Shown here piece by piece: positions 1 to 12,019 of a stretch of DNA of 54,520 nucleotides (positions are counted from its first letter, which is position 1; each line of letters begins with the position of its first letter). Source of the stretch: an uncultured Bacilli bacterium (GTDB lineage: Bacteria > Bacillota_I > Bacilli_A > RF39 > UBA660); assembly GCA_944358545.1 (NCBI GenBank), contig CALVRJ010000004.1, positions 1 through 54,520 of the forward strand, written 5' to 3'. A model generated the notes under the pieces. It was not told the DNA's origin and did not search any database. It saw only the letters and a list, made by a program, of their open reading frames with translations. A program made the translations under genes and the position numbers.

Positions 1-220
1 CCGGTTGGACCAGTAGCTCCTGTAGCACCTGTTCCAGATGGTCCGGTTGCTCCTGTAGGTCCGGTAGGCCCGGTTGGACCAGTAGCTCCTGTAGCACCTG
101 TTCCAGATGGTCCGGTTGCTCCAGTTGGACCAGTGGCTCCAGTTGGACCAGTAGCTCCGGTAGGTCCAGTTGTTCCAATACCTGTAGGTCCGGTAGGCCC
201 GGTAGGACCAGTTGCTCCGG
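1..220. repeat. Coding tandem repeats (9-nt Gly-X-Thr units, plus a ~53-nt exact duplication at 1 and 70)
   Basis: ccggttggaccagtagctcctgtagcacctgttccagatggtccggttgctcc occurs at 1 and 70; locally GC-rich. Confidence 0.85.
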
Positions 221-437
221 CAGGGATTGAAAAGTTTAAAACAGCAGCTTGATTGGTTCCAGTGTTTGTAACGGTAGCTGCCGTTCCAGGAGTACTTGTA
301 GAGGTTAAACCAACAGCAATCGTTGCTGGTCCGGTAGGTCCAGTGGGCCCAGTTGGTCCTTGAACTGGAAGTTTAGCTTGACAACGTTTTCCTTCTTCGA
401 GTATTTGCTGAATACGGTCTGGTAAACAATCGTTCAT
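1..437 (-). CDS. Collagen-like (GPT/GAT repeat) BclA-type protein, 5' part; runs off the window start
   Basis: Not in the ORF track. The minus strand reads [86 protein letters not shown]..., with AAGGAGG RBS at 443-449 and ATG at 437. Confidence 0.9.
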
Positions 438-7000: not shown

Positions 7001-8059
7001 ATGGCCGTTGTGTCAATGACTAATTTATTAGAGGCTGGTGTTCATTTTGGACATCAAACTAAAAGATGGAATCCAAAAATGAAGGAATACATCTTTACTG
7101 CAAGAGATGATATTTATATTATCGATTTACAAAAAACTGCAAAGAAAATCGAAGAAGCTTATGCAGCTTTAAAAGAAATTGCTGCTAATGGTGGAAAGGT
7201 TTTATTTGTAGGTACAAGAAAACAGGCTCAAGAAGCTGTAAAAGAAGAAGCTTTAAGAACTGATTCATTTTATGTTAATGAAAGATGGCTTGGTGGAACT
7301 TTAACTAACTTTAAGACTATTAGAAGAAGAGTTAAAAGACTTGAACAAATTGAGAAGATGGAAAAAGATGGAGTATTCGATCTTTTACCTAAAAAAGAAG
7401 TTGTTCATATTAAAAAAGAATATGCTAAGTTAAACAAATTACTTGCCGGTATTAGAAATATGTACAAATTACCACAAGCTTTATATATTGTTGATCCTTC
7501 AAAAGAAGAGATTGCAATTAGAGAAGCTAGAAAATTACATATTCCAGTATTTGGTATTGTTGATACTAACTGTGATCCTGATATGGTTGATTATGTAATT
7601 CCTGGTAATGATGATGCAATTAGAGCTGTTAAATTAATTACTGGTGTTATGGGTAATGCGATTGCTGAAGCTAATGGTGGAAAGTTAGTTGATTATGTAA
7701 GTGGCGATGGTCACAGAGAAGAAAAAGGCGAAGATATTATGAAGAGAGCCTTAGAAACTGTTAAGAAAAAAGAAGACAGAAAGCCAAGATTTGACCGTAA
7801 GGATAGAAAACCTTTCAATAAATCATCTGATAATAAATCATCTGAAAAAAGTGAAGCTCAACCTAAAAAAGTTCAAAAGACTGAAGAGAAACCTTCAGTA
7901 AAAGAAGAAGTCAAAGAAGTTCAGGCAGAAGAAACTAAAAAAGCCGATGTAGATTTATCTACAAAAAATGTAGCTGAACTTCGTGAAATGGCAAAAGAAA
8001 AAGGACTTAAAGGTTATTCAACAATGAAAAAAGCTGATCTTATTGAAGCTTTAAAATAG
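7001..8059 (+). CDS. rpsB: 30S ribosomal protein S2 with long C-terminal extension
   Basis: [45 protein letters not shown]. Confidence 0.99.
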
Positions 8060-8114: not shown

Positions 8115-8984
8115 ATGGTAAGTGCAAGTTTAGTAAAAGAACTTAGAGAGAAGACAGGAGCAGGAATGCTTGACTGTAAAAAAGCTTTAGAAGCTAACGA
8201 TGGAAATATCGAAGCATCTATCGATTGGCTTAGAGAAAAAGGTATTTCTAAAGCTGCTAAAAAAAGTGATAGAATTGCTGCAGAAGGAATTGCTTCTATT
8301 TTAGTTGACGGTAATGATGCTGTTATTTTGGAAATGAATTCAGAAACTGATTTCGTTGCTCAAAATGAAAAATTTAAAGAACTTGTTGCAAGTGTGTTAA
8401 AAGCTATTATTAAAAGTGATGCAAAAACTGTAGAAGAAGCTTTAGCTTTACCTTGCGAAGATGGAACAGTTAATGATTTAATTATTTCTAAAACTGCAAC
8501 TATTGGTGAAAAACTTTCTTTAAGAAGATTTGCCAAAGTTACTAAAGGTGATAATGAAACATTTGGTTCTTACATTCATATGGGTGGTAAAATTGCCGTA
8601 CTTATTGTAACTGAAAACACTTCAGAAGAAGTAGCTAAAGATGTAGCAATGCACGCTGCTGCAATGAGACCTAAATATGTTAAGACTACTGATGTTCCAG
8701 CAGAAGAGGTTGCTAGAGAGGAAGAAGTTTTAAAAGAACAAGCTGTTAATGAAGGTAAACCTGCCGAGATTGCTGAAAAAATGGTTAAGGGTAGAATTAA
8801 TAAGTTCTATAAAGAAATTTGTCTTGAAGAACAACCATTTGTTAAAGATGGAGACATCAATGTTAAAACTTATGTTAAGAACAATGGTGGCGAGATTAAG
8901 GCAATGTACCGTTATGAAGTAGGCGAAGGTATGGAAAAAAGAGAAGAAAATTTTGCTGAAGAAGTAGCTAAACAAATGAAATAA
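8115..8984 (+). CDS. tsf: Elongation factor Ts
   Basis: [29 protein letters not shown]. Confidence 0.99.
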
Positions 8985-9008
8985 GTATCTTAAAGGATAC
9001 TTTTTTTG
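8983..9008 (+). terminator. Intrinsic terminator of rpsB-tsf
   Basis: AAGTATCT/GGATACTT stem followed by a T-run. Confidence 0.7.
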
Positions 9009-9115
9009 TAAATTAAAAATTTATAGTAAATATTTAATAATAGTTAAGCATAATATTATAGTTTAATAAAATATTATGATGGTGATATACTTTCTATAAA
9101 GCAAGGTTGTTATAT

Positions 9116-9446
9116 ATGGAAGCAATTAGTATGATAAGTATTCAAGTTGATTCTAGCAATAAAGAAATAGCTAATAAGATTTCGAAAAATCTTGGACTTA
9201 ATATGAGTACTTTTGTAAATATGGTAATAAAACAATTGATTTATACTAATGGTTTTCCTTTTTGATGTTAAAATTCCCAGACCTAGTAAGGAACTTTTGG
9301 TTGCTTTAGAGGAAGGTGAAGACATTTTAAATGGTGATGTAGAGGCAAAAGAATATCATAATATTAATGATTTACTTGAGAATTTGAAAAATAAGTTGAA
9401 TACTGTAACAGATACAAAATATGAGATAAAATATACAAGTAAATAA
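9116..9446 (+). pseudogene. RelB/DinJ-family antitoxin, frameshifted
   Basis: MEAISMISIQVDSSNKEIANKISKNLGLNMSTFVNMVIKQLIYTNGFPF, then one extra T in the run at 9259-9263; continues DVKIPRPSKELLVALEE..YHNINDLLENL. Confidence 0.85.
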
Positions 9447-9672
9447 AAAAATAATTTAAGTAAATGTTAAAGCAAGGAAAAAACGAAAAGAATTTTTCAG
9501 AAGTTTTAGAATATTTGGCTAATGAAAAAGAACTACCAGAATAGTATAGAAATTATACTTTGTTTGATAGCAAAAAATATTTAAAATGTTGTGAATGTCA
9601 TATTGAACTAGATTGGTTACTTGTATATAAAATAAAATGATGAATTAATATTATTATTTTTGGCTACTTTTT
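9410..9672 (+). pseudogene. YafQ-family mRNA interferase toxin, multiply disrupted
   Basis: Across stops and frameshifts: YEIKYTSK*..KQGKNEKNFSEVLEYLANEKELPE*YRNYTL...CECHIELDWLLVYK..ELILLFLAT (YafQ ECHI.PDWLL.Y motif). Confidence 0.85.
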
Positions 9673-9725
9673 CAGCAGCCTCATTTTTTACTTTGTTTTT
9701 TAGTTAAAAATTTTATTTTATATAG

Positions 9726-9815
9726 TTATCTATGAAAAACGTGATATTTTCTGTGATTTTATCTATGAAAAACGTGATATTTTTTACAATTTTATCTATG
9801 AAAAATGTGTGATTA
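9726..9815. repeat. Three direct repeats with exact 33-bp period
   Basis: TTATCTATGAAAAACGTGATATTTT at 9726 and 9759; degenerate third copy TTATCTATGAAAAATGTG at 9792. Confidence 0.92.
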
Positions 9816-9864
9816 ATTTTCTTTTTAACTTTTAAAATGTTAATATAAATATAGGTGATTATCT

Positions 9865-11181
9865 ATGGACAGAAAAATATATAATGAATTACTTAAATGG
9901 AAAAACGAAAAGAATAATATAAAACCACTTATGGTTTTAGGGGTTAGGCAGTCAGGAAAAACTTATATTATCGATGAGTTTTGTAAAAGAGAATATAAGA
10001 ATTATATTTATGTTAATTTATTTGAAAATGACGATGTAATTAAGCTTTATAATTCAGACTTAAATTCTGATGAAAAGTTTGCTCAATTTAAGGTTTTGCT
10101 TAACTTTGATTTTGATAAAGAGGATCCAATTTTATTTATCGATGAGATTCAAGAGTCTGAAAAACTTATTTCAGAGCTTAAGTATTTTTGTGAGAGACAC
10201 AATAATGTGAAAATTATATGTGCGGGCTCTTTGCTTGGCGTTAAACTTAAAAGATCTAAGTTTTCATTTCCTGTCGGAAAAGTAAAGATGCTTAATATGT
10301 ATCCAATGGATTTTGAAGAGTTTTTAATGGCAATGGGTGAGAATTTATTAATTAAGATGATTAGAGATAGTTATAAAAATAATAAAGCTTTATCTGAGCC
10401 ATTACATAATAAAGCAATGAGACTTTATTATACTTATTTAATTACTGGTGGAATGCCTGAGAGTGTTAAATCAATGGTGGCAACTAATGGTGATTATATA
10501 AAATATGATATTTCAATTTTACCAGATATAGTTAGTTCATATTTTAAGGATATGGATAAATATGTGACAAGTGAAGCAGAATCTTTAAAAATACAAAGAG
10601 TTTATAATTCGCTTCCTTCACAACTTTCTAATTTATCAAATAAATTTCAATTTTCGAAGGTTGTTAAAGGGGCAAGAGCTAGAGAATACGAAACTTCTTT
10701 AGACTGGCTTTTAGCTAGTAATATGGTTCTTTTATCTAAGATGGTTAGGGTACCTGAGATTCCTTTGGTAGGTTATGCATATAATGATATTTTTAAGATA
10801 TATTTGAGTGATGTTGGGATACTTAATAGTATTTTAAAAATATCAATGAATGATATTTTGTCAAATAATATTTCTTTATATAAAGACGTAATTGCGGAGA
10901 ATTATGTGGCTAATCAACTTGTTTGTAATAATCATGATTTATTTTATTGGCAGAATAATACGTCTAAGGTTGATTTTTTACTTTATTCAAAAGAGGGAAT
11001 TATTCCGGTAGAAGTTAAAGCTTCTGATAATGTTAGATCAAAAAGTTTAAATGTTTATTTTGAAAAGTATCATCCTAAGTACATGGTAAGAATTAGTGCG
11101 AGAAATTTTGGATTTGATTCTAAGAAGAATATTAAGTCAGTTCCACTTTATGCGGTATTTTGTATCGAAAAAGATTTGTAA
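9865..11181 (+). CDS. AAA+ ATPase (AAA_14 type) with DUF4143 and C-terminal PD-(D/E)XK-like motif
   Basis: Walker A GVRQSGKT, Walker B LFIDEIQ, AGSLLG, YPMDFEEFL, GGMPE, KIYLSDVG, ENYVA, VDFLL...PVEVKAS. Confidence 0.9.
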   Translation: MDRKIYNELLKWKNEKNNIKPLMVLGVRQSGKTYIIDEFCKREYKNYIYVNLFENDDVIKLYNSDLNSDEKFAQFKVLLNFDFDKEDPILFIDEIQESEKLISELKYFCERHNNVKIICAGSLLGVKLKRSKFSFPVGKVKMLNMYPMDFEEFLMAMGENLLIKMIRDSYKNNKALSEPLHNKAMRLYYTYLITGGMPESVKSMVATNGDYIKYDISILPDIVSSYFKDMDKYVTSEAESLKIQRVYNSLPSQLSNLSNKFQFSKVVKGARAREYETSLDWLLASNMVLLSKMVRVPEIPLVGYAYNDIFKIYLSDVGILNSILKISMNDILSNNISLYKDVIAENYVANQLVCNNHDLFYWQNNTSKVDFLLYSKEGIIPVEVKASDNVRSKSLNVYFEKYHPKYMVRISARNFGFDSKKNIKSVPLYAVFCIEKDL

Positions 11182-11290
11182 ATTTAAACAAAGTAGATGT
11201 TTTACTTTGTTTTTTCATTGATAGTTTAGTGTTTATTTGCTATAATGAGAACAGTGTAGAAGACATGTTCTATATTAAAGGAGTATAAAA

Positions 11291-12019
11291 ATGGATTATA
11301 GTAATTTAAAAGTGCCTAATCACGTGGCAATTATTGTCGATGGAAATGGAAGATGGGCAACAGAAAGAGGTCTTTCTAGAAGTAAAGGACATGAACAAGG
11401 TTTTATTAATGTAAAAAAACTTAGTAGATATATTTTTTCAAAAGGAATTAATTATTTAAGTGCTTATCTATTTTCAACGGAAAATTTTAAAAGAAGTAAG
11501 GCAGAAGTAGATTTTTTAATGAATTTACTTACGGGCAGAATGAAAGATATATTGGATTTTTGTCATGAAGATAAAATAAAGGTTGTTTTTTCTGGTAGAC
11601 GTGAGGGTTTATCAGAAAAAGTAATAAAAACTATTTTAGAAATTGAAGAAGAGACTAAAGATTATGATAAAGTATTTAACTTATGTTTTAATTATGGTGG
11701 ACATGCAGAAATTGTCGATGCAACGAAAAAAATAGTTAAAGATGTAGAAAGTGGAAAACTTAATATAGATGATTTAAACGAGGATATTTATAGTCATTAT
11801 TTATATCAGGATTTGCCACCAGTAGATTTACTTATAAGAACAAGTGGAGAAATGAGACTTAGTAATTTTTTACTTTGGCAAGTTTCTTATGCAGAGTTTT
11901 ATTTTCCAAAGACTTATTTTCCGGATTTTGACGAAAAAGAATTCGATAAAGCTATAGTCGAATATACAAAACGTGATAGAAGGTTTGGAGGGATAAATTA
12001 TGAAGACAAGAGTAATTAG
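11291..12019 (+). CDS. uppS: Undecaprenyl diphosphate synthase
   Basis: PNHVAIIVDGNGRWA, FSTENFKR, DLLIRTSGEMRLSNFLLWQ. Confidence 0.97.
   Translation: MDYSNLKVPNHVAIIVDGNGRWATERGLSRSKGHEQGFINVKKLSRYIFSKGINYLSAYLFSTENFKRSKAEVDFLMNLLTGRMKDILDFCHEDKIKVVFSGRREGLSEKVIKTILEIEEETKDYDKVFNLCFNYGGHAEIVDATKKIVKDVESGKLNIDDLNEDIYSHYLYQDLPPVDLLIRTSGEMRLSNFLLWQVSYAEFYFPKTYFPDFDEKEFDKAIVEYTKRDRRFGGINYEDKSN

What the first reader, a model, noticed from the sequence alone, without database searches (positions are those of the whole stretch)
9726..11181. 33-bp-period repeat array upstream of an AAA+/DUF4143 ATPase-nuclease
Seen: TTATCTATGAAAAACGTGATATTTT starts at 9726 and 9759, with a degenerate copy at 9792 (exact 33-bp period, ~8-nt variable linkers). 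The core TTATCTATG recurs at 9859 and supplies the gene's own start codon. The protein has an AAA+ domain, DUF4143 and a D...EVK nuclease-like motif. Known: this family is widespread and poorly characterised; phased direct repeats (iterons) are loading sites for AAA+/winged-helix proteins; 33 bp is about three helical turns. Inference: a cognate cis array for the protein (autoregulation or loading), or a short repeat RNA acting with a single-gene defence or selfish module. The linkers are too short for CRISPR spacers and no cas genes are present.
Basis: partly seen in the sequence, partly recalled or inferred. Interest (0 to 1): 0.75.

Follow-up and report, generated by a model that had tools for sequence, protein, structure and literature searches.

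The report
Self-operator repeats of defence-candidate ATPase
Three evenly spaced (33-base) DNA repeats in front of an ATPase-nuclease gene are a conserved companion of this very common, uncharacterised candidate anti-phage gene family, and are most likely the docking sites through which the protein controls its own promoter.

Summary
Window 9726-9824 carries three 33-bp-spaced direct repeats, about 25 bp conserved plus about 8 bp of variable linker. They lie upstream of a 438-aa AAA_14+DUF4143 protein (PADLOC candidate PDC-S01).

In 88 different upstream regions of homologues (30-100% identity, different genomic contexts), 81 have their best self-match at period 32-33. Shuffles gave 18 of 440. 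Most arrays have 2-4 copies, ending about 53 bp before the start codon.

- **Unit anatomy:** a clade-specific box A plus a family-wide box B (AAAAA-N-GTG).
- **Promoter phasing:** the -35 lies in the last linker, and the -10 sits one further period downstream.
- **Co-mobility:** array, promoter and ORF move as one 1.49-kb cassette.
- **Specificity:** paralogues within one genome carry different repeats at the same period.
- **No regulon:** the motif is phased nowhere else in this genome.
- **Covariation:** residue 271 (R or K) at the start of the winged-helix recognition helix tracks the base before GTG in 88 of 89 rows. Only 4-5 switches are independent, so this is suggestive.

Best reading (about 0.6): the protein's own operator or loading array, probably autorepression. 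Binding is inferred, not shown. This scan noted the same design before on other DNA. I found no published description.

The parts
9704..11191 (+). Cassette of array, promoter and ORF, shared as DNA with homologous cassettes that sit in unrelated genomic contexts
   Evidence: blastn matches window 9704-11191 to L035 and L071 (79.4-79.5% over 1494 nt) and 9711-11182 to L036 (77.5%). The flanks are unrelated. Homology to the closest relative G024, which lacks the gene at this site, resumes at the stop codon.
9726..9758 (+). Repeat unit 1: box A TTATCTATG, box B AAAAACGTGATA, about 8-nt linker
9759..9791 (+). Repeat unit 2. Its first 25 nt are identical to unit 1 and the linker differs.
9792..9824 (+). 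Repeat unit 3 (box B AAAAATGTG, 3' part diverged). Its linker occupies the place where relatives carry the -35 hexamer TTGAC.
9825..9857 (+). Degenerate fourth unit, in phase with the array. It carries the likely extended -10 (TG at 9838-9839, TAATAT at 9841-9846) at the box-B position, and the ribosome-binding site AGGTGA at 9853-9858.
   Evidence: Stacked 33-nt rows of the window and 25 relatives. The last GTG lies 33-35 bp before the -10 in 38 of 70 arrays. This promoter was read by eye and by homology; the consensus scan did not list it.
9859..9867 (+). Fifth, in-phase recurrence of box A (TTATCTATG), overlapping the start codon ATG at 9865
   Evidence: It is present in this locus only, not in the 81-83% relatives L007 and L036.
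9865..11181 (+). Gene for the 438-aa AAA_14+DUF4143 ATPase-nuclease (PADLOC PDC-S01). Domains: AAA+ about 1-155, lid about 160-230, winged helix about 237-314 (recognition helix from R271), PD-(D/E)xK-like domain about 337-433.
11186..11215 (+). Terminator-like hairpin (AAACAAAGTA / TACTTTGTTT) followed by a T run. It is shared with the cassette-free relative G024.
   Evidence: Read by eye. It aligns to G024. The scan did not list it, because that scan requires 3 G-C pairs.

Best explanation
The repeats are the cognate cis-acting operator or loading array of the protein encoded just downstream.

- **The protein:** an ORC/Cdc6-STAND-like AAA+ ATPase, followed by a winged-helix domain and a PD-(D/E)xK nuclease domain.
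- **Inferred binding:** each 25-bp unit is read sequence-specifically. The winged helix reads the family-wide box B (AAAAA-N-GTG). Another surface, or a second protomer, reads the clade-specific box A.
- **Inferred assembly:** protomers bound head-to-tail every 33 bp (three helical turns, so on one face of the DNA) act cooperatively.
- **Inferred regulation:** occupancy extends onto the in-phase, weaker fourth unit that contains the -10, and here onto a box A at the start codon. The protein would thereby limit its own synthesis (negative autoregulation of a potentially toxic nuclease).

Shown by computation: the conserved anatomy, the co-mobility of array and gene, the paralogue specificity and the promoter phasing. 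Inferred: the binding, its sign (repression rather than activation) and any role of ATP.
For: 1. **Conservation.** In 81 of 88 non-identical upstream regions of homologues (30-100% identity), the best self-match has period 32-33, against 18 of 440 shuffles. The score reaches 15 or more in 63 of 88, against 0 of 440 shuffles. Copy number is 3 in 41 regions, 2 in 23, 4 in 7, and none was called in 17. Spacing is 33 bp in 103 and 32 bp in 15 of 126 intervals. A second, more distant set from metagenome and viral contigs gives period 32-33 in 48 of 79.
2. **Footprint-like profile.** Within-array identity is 0.6-0.9 from -18 to +6 around the GTG and falls to 0.3-0.45 in the roughly 8-nt linker. Box B is conserved across the family (A 0.91-0.92). 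Box A is conserved within arrays but not across clades (74 arrays, 149 unit pairs).
3. **Promoter register.** In relatives a TTGAC -35 lies in the last linker. The -10 starts 33-35 bp after the last GTG in 38 of the 70 arrays with a 5/6 -10. In distant clades the last box B is itself the -10, or units flank the -10 and the ribosome-binding site.
4. **Co-mobility.** DNA homology to cassettes in other contexts covers exactly array plus promoter plus ORF, window 9704-11191. Relatives sit behind ychF, uvrB, gpsA, infB and spo0A-like gene ends.
5. **Not one host factor.** Different repeats at the same period precede paralogues of one genome. In G033, 5 of 12 regions score 13 or more at period 33 with mutually different units. 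In G018, L007 and L028 differ. In G000 itself, the window array differs from the array of a truncated paralogue on contig C9. In the 1.38-Mb genome, phased AAAANGTG pairs occur at the array (2) and at only 2 other places.
6. **Covariation.** Residue 271 is R with a pyrimidine before GTG in 63 rows and K with a purine in 25 rows. One of 89 rows is discordant.
7. **Fold.** The AF2 model has pLDDT 91.5. Its best Foldseek matches are archaeal AAA+ ATPases 2qen and 2fna (E 5e-10, 3e-9), ORC subunits, and Cdc6/Orc1 bound to origin DNA (2qby, E 4e-6). Residues 235-316 match winged-helix DNA-binding domains at Z 5.1-5.6.
Against: - No binding, footprint or expression data exist. Everything is comparative.
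- The covariation rests on only 4-5 phylogenetically independent switches (sign test p = 0.125). It breaks down outside the A[RK]xR clades.
- About 30 of 79 distant relatives show no 33-bp array, so the design is not universal.
- My control set of other upstream regions was contaminated by the same kind of array: 15 of 125 scored 15 or more, and the best ones were family arrays seen from a neighbouring ORF or a second array.
- In the main clade the strong units are centred near -52, -85 and -118 from the inferred start. That geometry also suits an activator or UP-like A-tracts.
- This window's own -35 is poor, and its promoter was not picked up by the consensus scan.
- The winged-helix and nuclease fold matches are of middling strength (Z below 8).
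Confidence: 0.6

Rival explanations
1. The array is bound by the protein, but its main role is not gene regulation. It would be a nucleation or parking platform on which the ORC-like ATPase-nuclease oligomerises. That could be a standby complex of a defence sensor, or an origin-like or homing-like site of a selfish cassette. Autoregulation would then be a by-product.
For: The fold is closest to ORC/Cdc6 and STAND ATPases, which assemble on DNA or ligands. Archaeal orc1/cdc6 genes also lie next to their repeated recognition boxes (recalled, no call). The cassette is highly mobile, patchy in the genus (14 of 24 genomes) and inserted in a hot spot. There are three strong sites where one operator would suffice for repression.
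Against: One genome carries up to 13 paralogues, each with its own array, which is hard to reconcile with origins. The array is on one side of the gene only. The strict register with the -35 and -10 points to promoter control. No data bear on oligomerisation.
Confidence: 0.15
2. The units are promoter-architecture elements read by the host machinery or by another trans factor, not by the encoded protein. Examples would be phased A-tracts acting as UP-like or curved DNA.
For: Every unit has an A5-6 tract, and often a second A-run 11 bp upstream. The last A-tract lies about -52 to -47 from the inferred start, where UP elements act.
Against: GTG and box A are conserved within arrays, yet box A differs between paralogues of the same genome. 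The motif is not phased elsewhere in the genome. The array travels with the gene between Bacilli-like and Clostridia MAGs. The residue-271/base association holds in 88 of 89 rows.
Confidence: 0.12
3. The array is a neutral local tandem duplication of promoter or 5'-end sequence, with no function.
For: Box B resembles the extended -10 region. In this locus box A equals the sequence around the start codon, so the units may have arisen by duplication of promoter-proximal DNA.
Against: The period, copy number and position are kept across homologues down to about 30% identity, while the linkers drift to background. In the contigs of all four runs laid, the three copies are kept with point changes only, apart from one extra T after 9779 in run X5.
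Confidence: 0.02
4. The array is transcribed and acts as a short repeat RNA (CRISPR-like or sRNA) together with the ATPase-nuclease.
For: Contigs from two RNA libraries cover the array, but such contigs cannot show transcription, its strand or its start.
Against: The linkers are about 8 nt. The inferred promoter lies downstream of units 1-3. No Rfam family matches window 8900-11400 at E up to 1. Units differ between clades in the way protein-binding sites do.
Confidence: 0.02

Closest known systems
PADLOC phage-defence candidate PDC-S01 (Pfam AAA_14 + DUF4143; COG1373)
   Same: P0001 matches the PDC-S01 models over its full length (E 7e-141). It has both Pfam domains and conserved Walker A, Walker B and D..EVK motifs.
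   Different: The family is defined by protein models only. PDCs are described as untested candidates (passages of 10.1101/2024.01.29.577857; PMC12988326). None of the passages I read mentions upstream repeats. The cis array is the added feature here.
Iterons and operators of plasmid Rep initiators (for example pPS10 or pSC101 RepA, R6K pi; recalled from general knowledge, no call)
   Same: Several head-to-tail repeats lie next to the gene of the winged-helix protein that binds them, and are coupled to autoregulation of that gene.
   Different: The period is 33 bp rather than about 22. The protein is an AAA+ ATPase with a nuclease domain, not a Rep_3-type initiator. The setting is a chromosomal single-gene cassette, many per genome. 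There is no sign of a replicon.
Archaeal Orc1/Cdc6 with origin recognition boxes
   Same: The AAA+ plus C-terminal winged-helix architecture is the best structural match after two uncharacterised archaeal ATPases: ORC subunits at E about 2e-7 and 2qby (Cdc6/Orc1 on origin DNA) at E 4e-6. That the recognition sites are bipartite and repeated beside the initiator's own gene is recalled.
   Different: The repeats here are direct, phased with a promoter, and not arranged around an unwinding element. The protein carries a PD-(D/E)xK domain. Sequence similarity is undetectable.
NrdR and its tandem NrdR boxes (recalled)
   Same: Sites of a nucleotide-dependent oligomeric repressor, spaced about three helical turns apart at a promoter.
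   Different: NrdR has a zinc ribbon and an ATP-cone, and its boxes are palindromes. No such domains are found here.
McrC, Can2 and Card1 nuclease domains
   Same: The C-terminal domain superposes on PD-(D/E)xK nucleases of defence systems: Can2 at Z 7.2, McrC at Z 7.0 and Card1 at Z 6.7.
   Different: The Z values are middling and concern the fold only. There is no CARF domain and no McrB-type partner.

Membership tests
PDC-S01 (PADLOC) / COG1373 AAA_14+DUF4143 | Full-length match to the family HMMs | tested here: met
   PDLC04786 matches at E 7.3e-141 over residues 1-436, and six further PDC-S01 models also match.
PDC-S01 (PADLOC) / COG1373 AAA_14+DUF4143 | N-terminal AAA_14 ATPase with Walker A and B, and C-terminal DUF4143 | tested here: met
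   PF13173 matches at E 2e-25 and PF13635 at E 4e-28. G26, G31, K32 and D93 are invariant; T33 and E94 are at least 90% conserved.
PDC-S01 (PADLOC) / COG1373 AAA_14+DUF4143 | PD-(D/E)xK catalytic motif and fold in DUF4143 | tested here: met
   D370, E383 and K385 are at least 90% conserved in 54 sequences. The fold matches Can2 (Z 7.2), McrC (Z 7.0) and restriction enzymes; these Z values alone are middling. DUF4143 is listed in the PD-(D/E)XK superfamily survey (PMC3424549, passage).
PDC-S01 (PADLOC) / COG1373 AAA_14+DUF4143 | Anti-phage activity | not testable with these tools
   PDCs are 'untested phage defence candidates'. The window's context is housekeeping genes (rpsB, tsf, uppS, cdsA), not a defence island.
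Autoregulatory operator / iteron array | Several phased repeats adjacent to, and co-inherited with, the gene of a DNA-binding protein | tested here: met
Autoregulatory operator / iteron array | Sites overlap or abut the core promoter elements | tested here: met
   The -35 lies in the last linker. The -10 lies one period after the last GTG in 38 of 70 arrays. In distant clades units overlap the -10 or the ribosome-binding site. Promoters are inferred from sequence only.
Autoregulatory operator / iteron array | The encoded protein binds the repeats and changes its own transcription | not testable with these tools
   Only indirect support: paralogue-specific repeats and the residue-271/base association in 88 of 89 rows, with 4-5 independent switches and p = 0.125.
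ORC/Cdc6-type initiators | AAA+ module followed by a winged-helix domain | tested here: met
   Foldseek matches ORC subunits at E about 2e-7 and 2qby at E 4e-6. Winged-helix matches reach Z 5.1-5.6.
ORC/Cdc6-type initiators | Recognition boxes arranged around an unwinding element of a replication origin | tested here: not met
   All units are direct repeats on one side of the gene and in register with a promoter. One genome holds up to 13 copies. Origin activity itself is not testable here.
CRISPR array | Repeats separated by spacers of about 26-40 nt, with cas genes nearby | tested here: not met
   The linkers are about 8 nt and there are three strong units. The cas genes were not searched for.

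The most novel reading that the evidence does not exclude
The array is more than an operator. It would be the DNA template on which an ORC-like ATPase-nuclease assembles into a defined oligomer: one protomer or dimer every three helical turns, with box A and box B read by two different surfaces. That parked nucleoprotein complex would be the resting state of one of the commonest candidate defence genes of prokaryotes. A trigger would release or activate the nuclease, while the promoter-embedded weak fourth site makes the system self-limiting. The same cis element would also make the 1.5-kb cassette a self-contained, transferable unit.
Probability: 0.15. Interest if true: 0.8.

Novelty: new variant of a known kind. 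Interest (0 to 1): 0.6.

Why it matters
PDC-S01 is reported as the fourth most common defence candidate across prokaryotes, with about 29,500 bacterial and 10,000 archaeal hits (PMC12988326, passages). It has no known mechanism or ligand. A conserved, gene-linked DNA site gives the family its first concrete, testable molecular handle. It provides a defined 25-bp ligand for binding, footprinting and structural work, and a predicted specificity pair (residue 271 against the base before GTG) for swap experiments. It also provides a built-in regulatory circuit that must be respected when these genes are cloned for phage assays. Finally, it shows that an ORC/Cdc6-like module is used in bacteria with phased direct repeats at a promoter.

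Tried and rejected
- **Homodimer prediction** (complex prediction): no verdict (score 0.00), so it counts neither way.
- **Sequence search of the PDB**: nothing below E 0.2.
- **NCBIfam**: no family for P0001 or for the two small ORFs.
- **Rfam on 8900-11400**: no match at E up to 1.
- **Promoter and terminator scan**: it listed neither the gene's promoter nor a terminator in the region. Both are read by eye or by homology.
- **Laid contigs**: contigs of two RNA and two DNA libraries cover the region but cannot show a transcription start, strand or level. X18's RNA contigs break near 9929 and 10072-10101, and I draw nothing from that.
- **Control upstream regions from the same loci**: these were contaminated by the same arrays, so I rely on shuffles and on downstream regions. 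Of 86 downstream regions, 7 scored 15 or more and 10 had period 32-33.
- **Simple R/K to pyrimidine/purine rule**: it does not extend to distant clades, where [AG]R-A-[KN] proteins have A before GTG. Adding the metagenome set did not raise the number of independent concordant pairs above 4.
- **Basic residues at 271 and 273 against presence of an array**: only a trend. Counts were 83 with both, 37 with neither, 27 basic but no array, and 15 array but not basic, of 162.
- **Target-site duplication**: I considered the 16-nt direct repeat at 9686 and 11200 as a target-site duplication of the cassette. I rejected this because the right copy is part of a terminator also present in cassette-free G024, and cassette homology starts only at 9704.
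- **26-codon in-frame ORF across the units**: I considered that the array encodes it. I rejected this because it has no ribosome-binding site and relatives' units lack the ATG.
- **Literature search 'AAA_14' plus 'nuclease'**: it returned only unrelated papers.
Full report
**Observation**

The repeat is real and far beyond chance.
- Tandem Repeats Finder reports 9726-9809 with period 33, 2.5 copies and 90% matches.
- The 25-mer is exact at 9726 and 9759, with 0 expected in shuffles.
- An in-register third copy starts at 9792.
- TTATCTATG recurs at 9859 over the start codon. The window holds 5 copies in all against 1.1 expected.
- Stacking the sequence in 33-nt rows shows that the 9859 copy is in phase, at 4x33+1 bp.

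**The gene**

- ORF 9865-11181 encodes 438 aa with AAA_14 and DUF4143.
- It matches PADLOC's candidate family PDC-S01 over its full length (E 7e-141).
- In 54 aligned homologues, Walker A (G26, G31, K32, T33), Walker B (D93, E94) and D370, E383, V384, K385 are invariant or at least 90% conserved.
- No solved structure is detectable by sequence.
- The AF2 model (pLDDT 91.5) shows four parts: AAA+ (about 1-155), a helical lid, a winged helix (about 237-314) and an alpha/beta domain (about 337-433).
- Foldseek's best matches are the archaeal AAA+ ATPases 2qen and 2fna, then ORC subunits, Cdc6/Orc1 on origin DNA (2qby), Apaf-1 and CED-4.
- Residues 232-438 folded alone give pLDDT 87. Residues about 326-438 superpose on PD-(D/E)xK nucleases (Can2 Z 7.2, McrC Z 7.0). 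Residues about 235-316 superpose on winged-helix DNA-binding domains (Z 5.1-5.6). The tool itself rates these Z values as middling.

I collected homologues from relatives of the genome and from one genome per species. I then analysed 88 non-identical 200-nt upstream regions.

| Measure | Homologue upstream regions | Shuffles |
|---|---|---|
| Best ungapped self-match at period 33 | 70 of 88 | not counted separately |
| Best self-match at period 32-33 | 81 of 88 | 18 of 440 |
| Score 15 or more | 63 of 88 | 0 of 440 |

- Downstream regions gave 7 of 86 at score 15 or more.
- My set of other upstream regions from the same loci was not clean. Of 125, 15 scored 15 or more, and the best of these were the same arrays, or further arrays of this type.
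- A 70%-identity rescan copies in 41 regions, 2 in 23, 4 in 7, and none in 17.
- Spacings are 33 bp in 103 and 32 bp in 15 of 126. The last copy ends a median 53 bp before the start codon.
- A second, more distant set (31-72% identity, 79 regions from metagenome and IMG/VR contigs) gives period 32-33 in 48 of 79. About 30 have no such repeat. The design is therefore widespread, not universal.

**Anatomy of a unit**

I anchored units on the phased GTG.
- Within-array identity between adjacent units is 0.6-0.9 from -18 to +6. It falls to 0.3-0.45 in an 8-9-nt linker (74 arrays, 149 pairs).
- Box B (AAAAA-N-GTG-x-AA) is conserved across the family.
- Box A (about 11 nt upstream) is conserved within an array but differs between clades. 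Examples are TTATCTATG here, and AAAGTCGTTAG, ATCTCC and AAAGTGGGTGC elsewhere.

**Register with the promoter**

- In the main clade the GTGs sit at about -125, -92 and -59 from the start codon.
- A TTGAC -35 lies in the last linker.
- The best -10 starts 33-35 bp after the last GTG in 38 of the 70 arrays that have a 5/6 -10. That is the box-B position of a degenerate next unit.
- In distant clades the last box B is itself the -10 (for example GTGATATAAT), or units flank the -10 and overlap the ribosome-binding site.
- In this window the fourth, degenerate unit (9825-9857) carries an extended -10 (TG at 9838-9839, TAATAT at 9841-9846).
- These promoters are inferred from sequence. The consensus scan did not list this one.

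**Evidence that the array belongs to the gene's own product**

1. *Co-mobility.* DNA homology to cassettes in unrelated contexts spans exactly window 9704-11191 (L035 and L071) or 9711-11182 (L036).
   - The tsf-uppS gap is a variable hot spot. It is 134 bp and empty in G042, holds other inserts in G012, G020 and G022, and holds other DNA without this gene in the closest relative G024.
   - Homology to G024 resumes at the stop codon.
2. *Paralogue specificity.* In G033, which has 13 matches, I fetched 12 upstream regions.
   - Five score 13 or more at period 33, with mutually different units.
   - Three more have weak best matches at period 32-33.
   - L153 shows three AAAAAAGTG boxes 33 bp apart by eye.
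   - Two regions were cut by contig ends.
   - G018's two paralogues differ likewise.
   - In G000 itself, a truncated paralogue on contig C9 keeps its own, different three-copy array at 32-bp spacing.
3. *No regulon.* The 18-mer occurs only at the array, plus one 2-mismatch hit. Of the 4 pairs of AAAANGTG sites spaced 32-34 bp apart in the 1.38-Mb genome, 2 are the array.
4. *Covariation.* Residue 271 lies at the start of the winged-helix recognition helix.
   - Where it is R, a pyrimidine precedes GTG. Where it is K, a purine does.
   - In the first set, 54 + 24 rows agree and 0 of 78 are discordant.
   - With the added sequences, 63 + 25 rows agree and 1 of 89 is discordant.
   - On the tree this amounts to 4-5 independent pairs. 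Four go the same way and none the opposite (p = 0.125), so it is suggestive only.
   - The rule changes form in distant clades.

**Strain and RNA data**

The stretch is held in chicken-gut and other runs. Contigs of four runs, two from RNA libraries, span the array.
- All keep three copies.
- They show point changes only, for example 9740 C>T, which keeps a pyrimidine before GTG. The one exception is an extra T after 9779 in run X5.
- Contigs cannot show a transcription start.
- One run also holds a G024-like junction at 11205, which indicates a co-occurring strain without the cassette at this site.

**Mechanism**

The best-supported model (about 0.6) is as follows.
- The protein reads its own units through the winged helix (box B), and through a second surface or protomer (box A).
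- It binds head-to-tail every three helical turns.
- It extends cooperatively onto the weak, promoter-embedded unit, which gives negative autoregulation.

The sign of regulation, the stoichiometry and the role of ATP are inferred. The rivals are:

| Rival | Estimate |
|---|---|
| Assembly or parking platform with a role beyond regulation | 0.15 |
| Promoter architecture or another factor | 0.12 |
| Neutral duplication | 0.02 |
| Repeat RNA | 0.02 |

**Comparison with what is known**

- *Membership.* The protein is a clear member of PDC-S01/COG1373.
- *What it works like.* The nearest analogues are the iteron and operator sets of plasmid Rep proteins and the origin boxes of archaeal Orc1/Cdc6. 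The differences are the 33-bp period, the strict promoter register, the nuclease domain and the many-per-genome cassette form.
- *Literature.* I searched 'DUF4143' (4 papers; passages read in 3). I searched 'PDC-S01' (7 papers; passages of PMC12988326) and 'COG1373' (8 papers, listing only). I also read passages of the PDC preprint.
- *Result.* None of what I saw mentions upstream repeats. I did not read whole texts, and supplements were closed.
- *Earlier notes of this scan.* They report the same gene-plus-array design on other DNA, mostly at 23-bp period or as palindromes, and once at 33 bp. These are unverified AI notes that agree with my reading, which I had formed. They are not independent evidence.

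**Verdict**

The cis-array interpretation is supported comparatively, and the RNA alternative is not. This is a new variant of a known kind (a self-operator or iteron-like array), attached to a very abundant uncharacterised ATPase-nuclease. Interest: 0.6.

Noticed in passing
window 9086-9640: Remnants of a DinJ/RelB-like antitoxin lie in two frames (9086-9265 and 9240-9446). A YafQ-like toxin is split in pieces (9464-9544, and 9545-9640 with the ...CECHIELDWLLVYKI motif). The family names are my reading of the translations; Pfam and NCBIfam gave no hit for 9249-9446. Run X5 lacks one base at 9259.
   Followed up: partly
window 8985-11290 and loci L144-L149: The tsf-uppS intergenic region is a cassette hot spot in this genus. 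It is 134 bp in G042 and holds 657-1478 bp of unrelated inserts in G024, G012, G022 and G020. Here tsf is followed directly by uppS. I did not look for pyrH or frr elsewhere.
   Followed up: partly
L006 (G000:C9) about 1385-1665: A truncated paralogue (about 60 codons, 45% identical over residues 2-53) keeps its own three-copy array at 32-bp spacing (GGAATT-TGTGA-type units). The last unit overlaps the -10-like region.
   Followed up: partly
window 9553-9581, 9686-9714, 11200-11227: Three similar copies of a terminator tail (TTTTACTTTGTTT...GATAG) lie at successive junctions of the inserted segments. They may be traces of repeated insertion or recombination at one site.
   Followed up: partly
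window 7001-8059: Ribosomal protein S2 is 352 aa long and carries a C-terminal Rho_N domain (Pfam E 1e-10). The same 352-aa query length aligns in relatives.
   Followed up: no
window 1-224: Triplet-based tandem repeats (periods 9, 18, 27 and 69) typical of a collagen-like Gly-X-Y coding region on the minus strand, cut by the window start.
   Followed up: no
window 9726-9812: Because 33 is a multiple of 3, the array reads as an open frame of repeated MKNVIF... segments. It has no ribosome-binding site, and relatives' units lack the ATG.
   Followed up: yes
loci L242-L261 (IMG/VR): Twenty viral or proviral contigs encode relatives (28-42% identity). Some have the same 33-bp arrays, for example five phased units in L245.
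   Followed up: partly
G033 (same class, other family): One 2.1-Mb genome holds 13 matches to this protein family, several of them in pairs on the same contig.
   Followed up: partly
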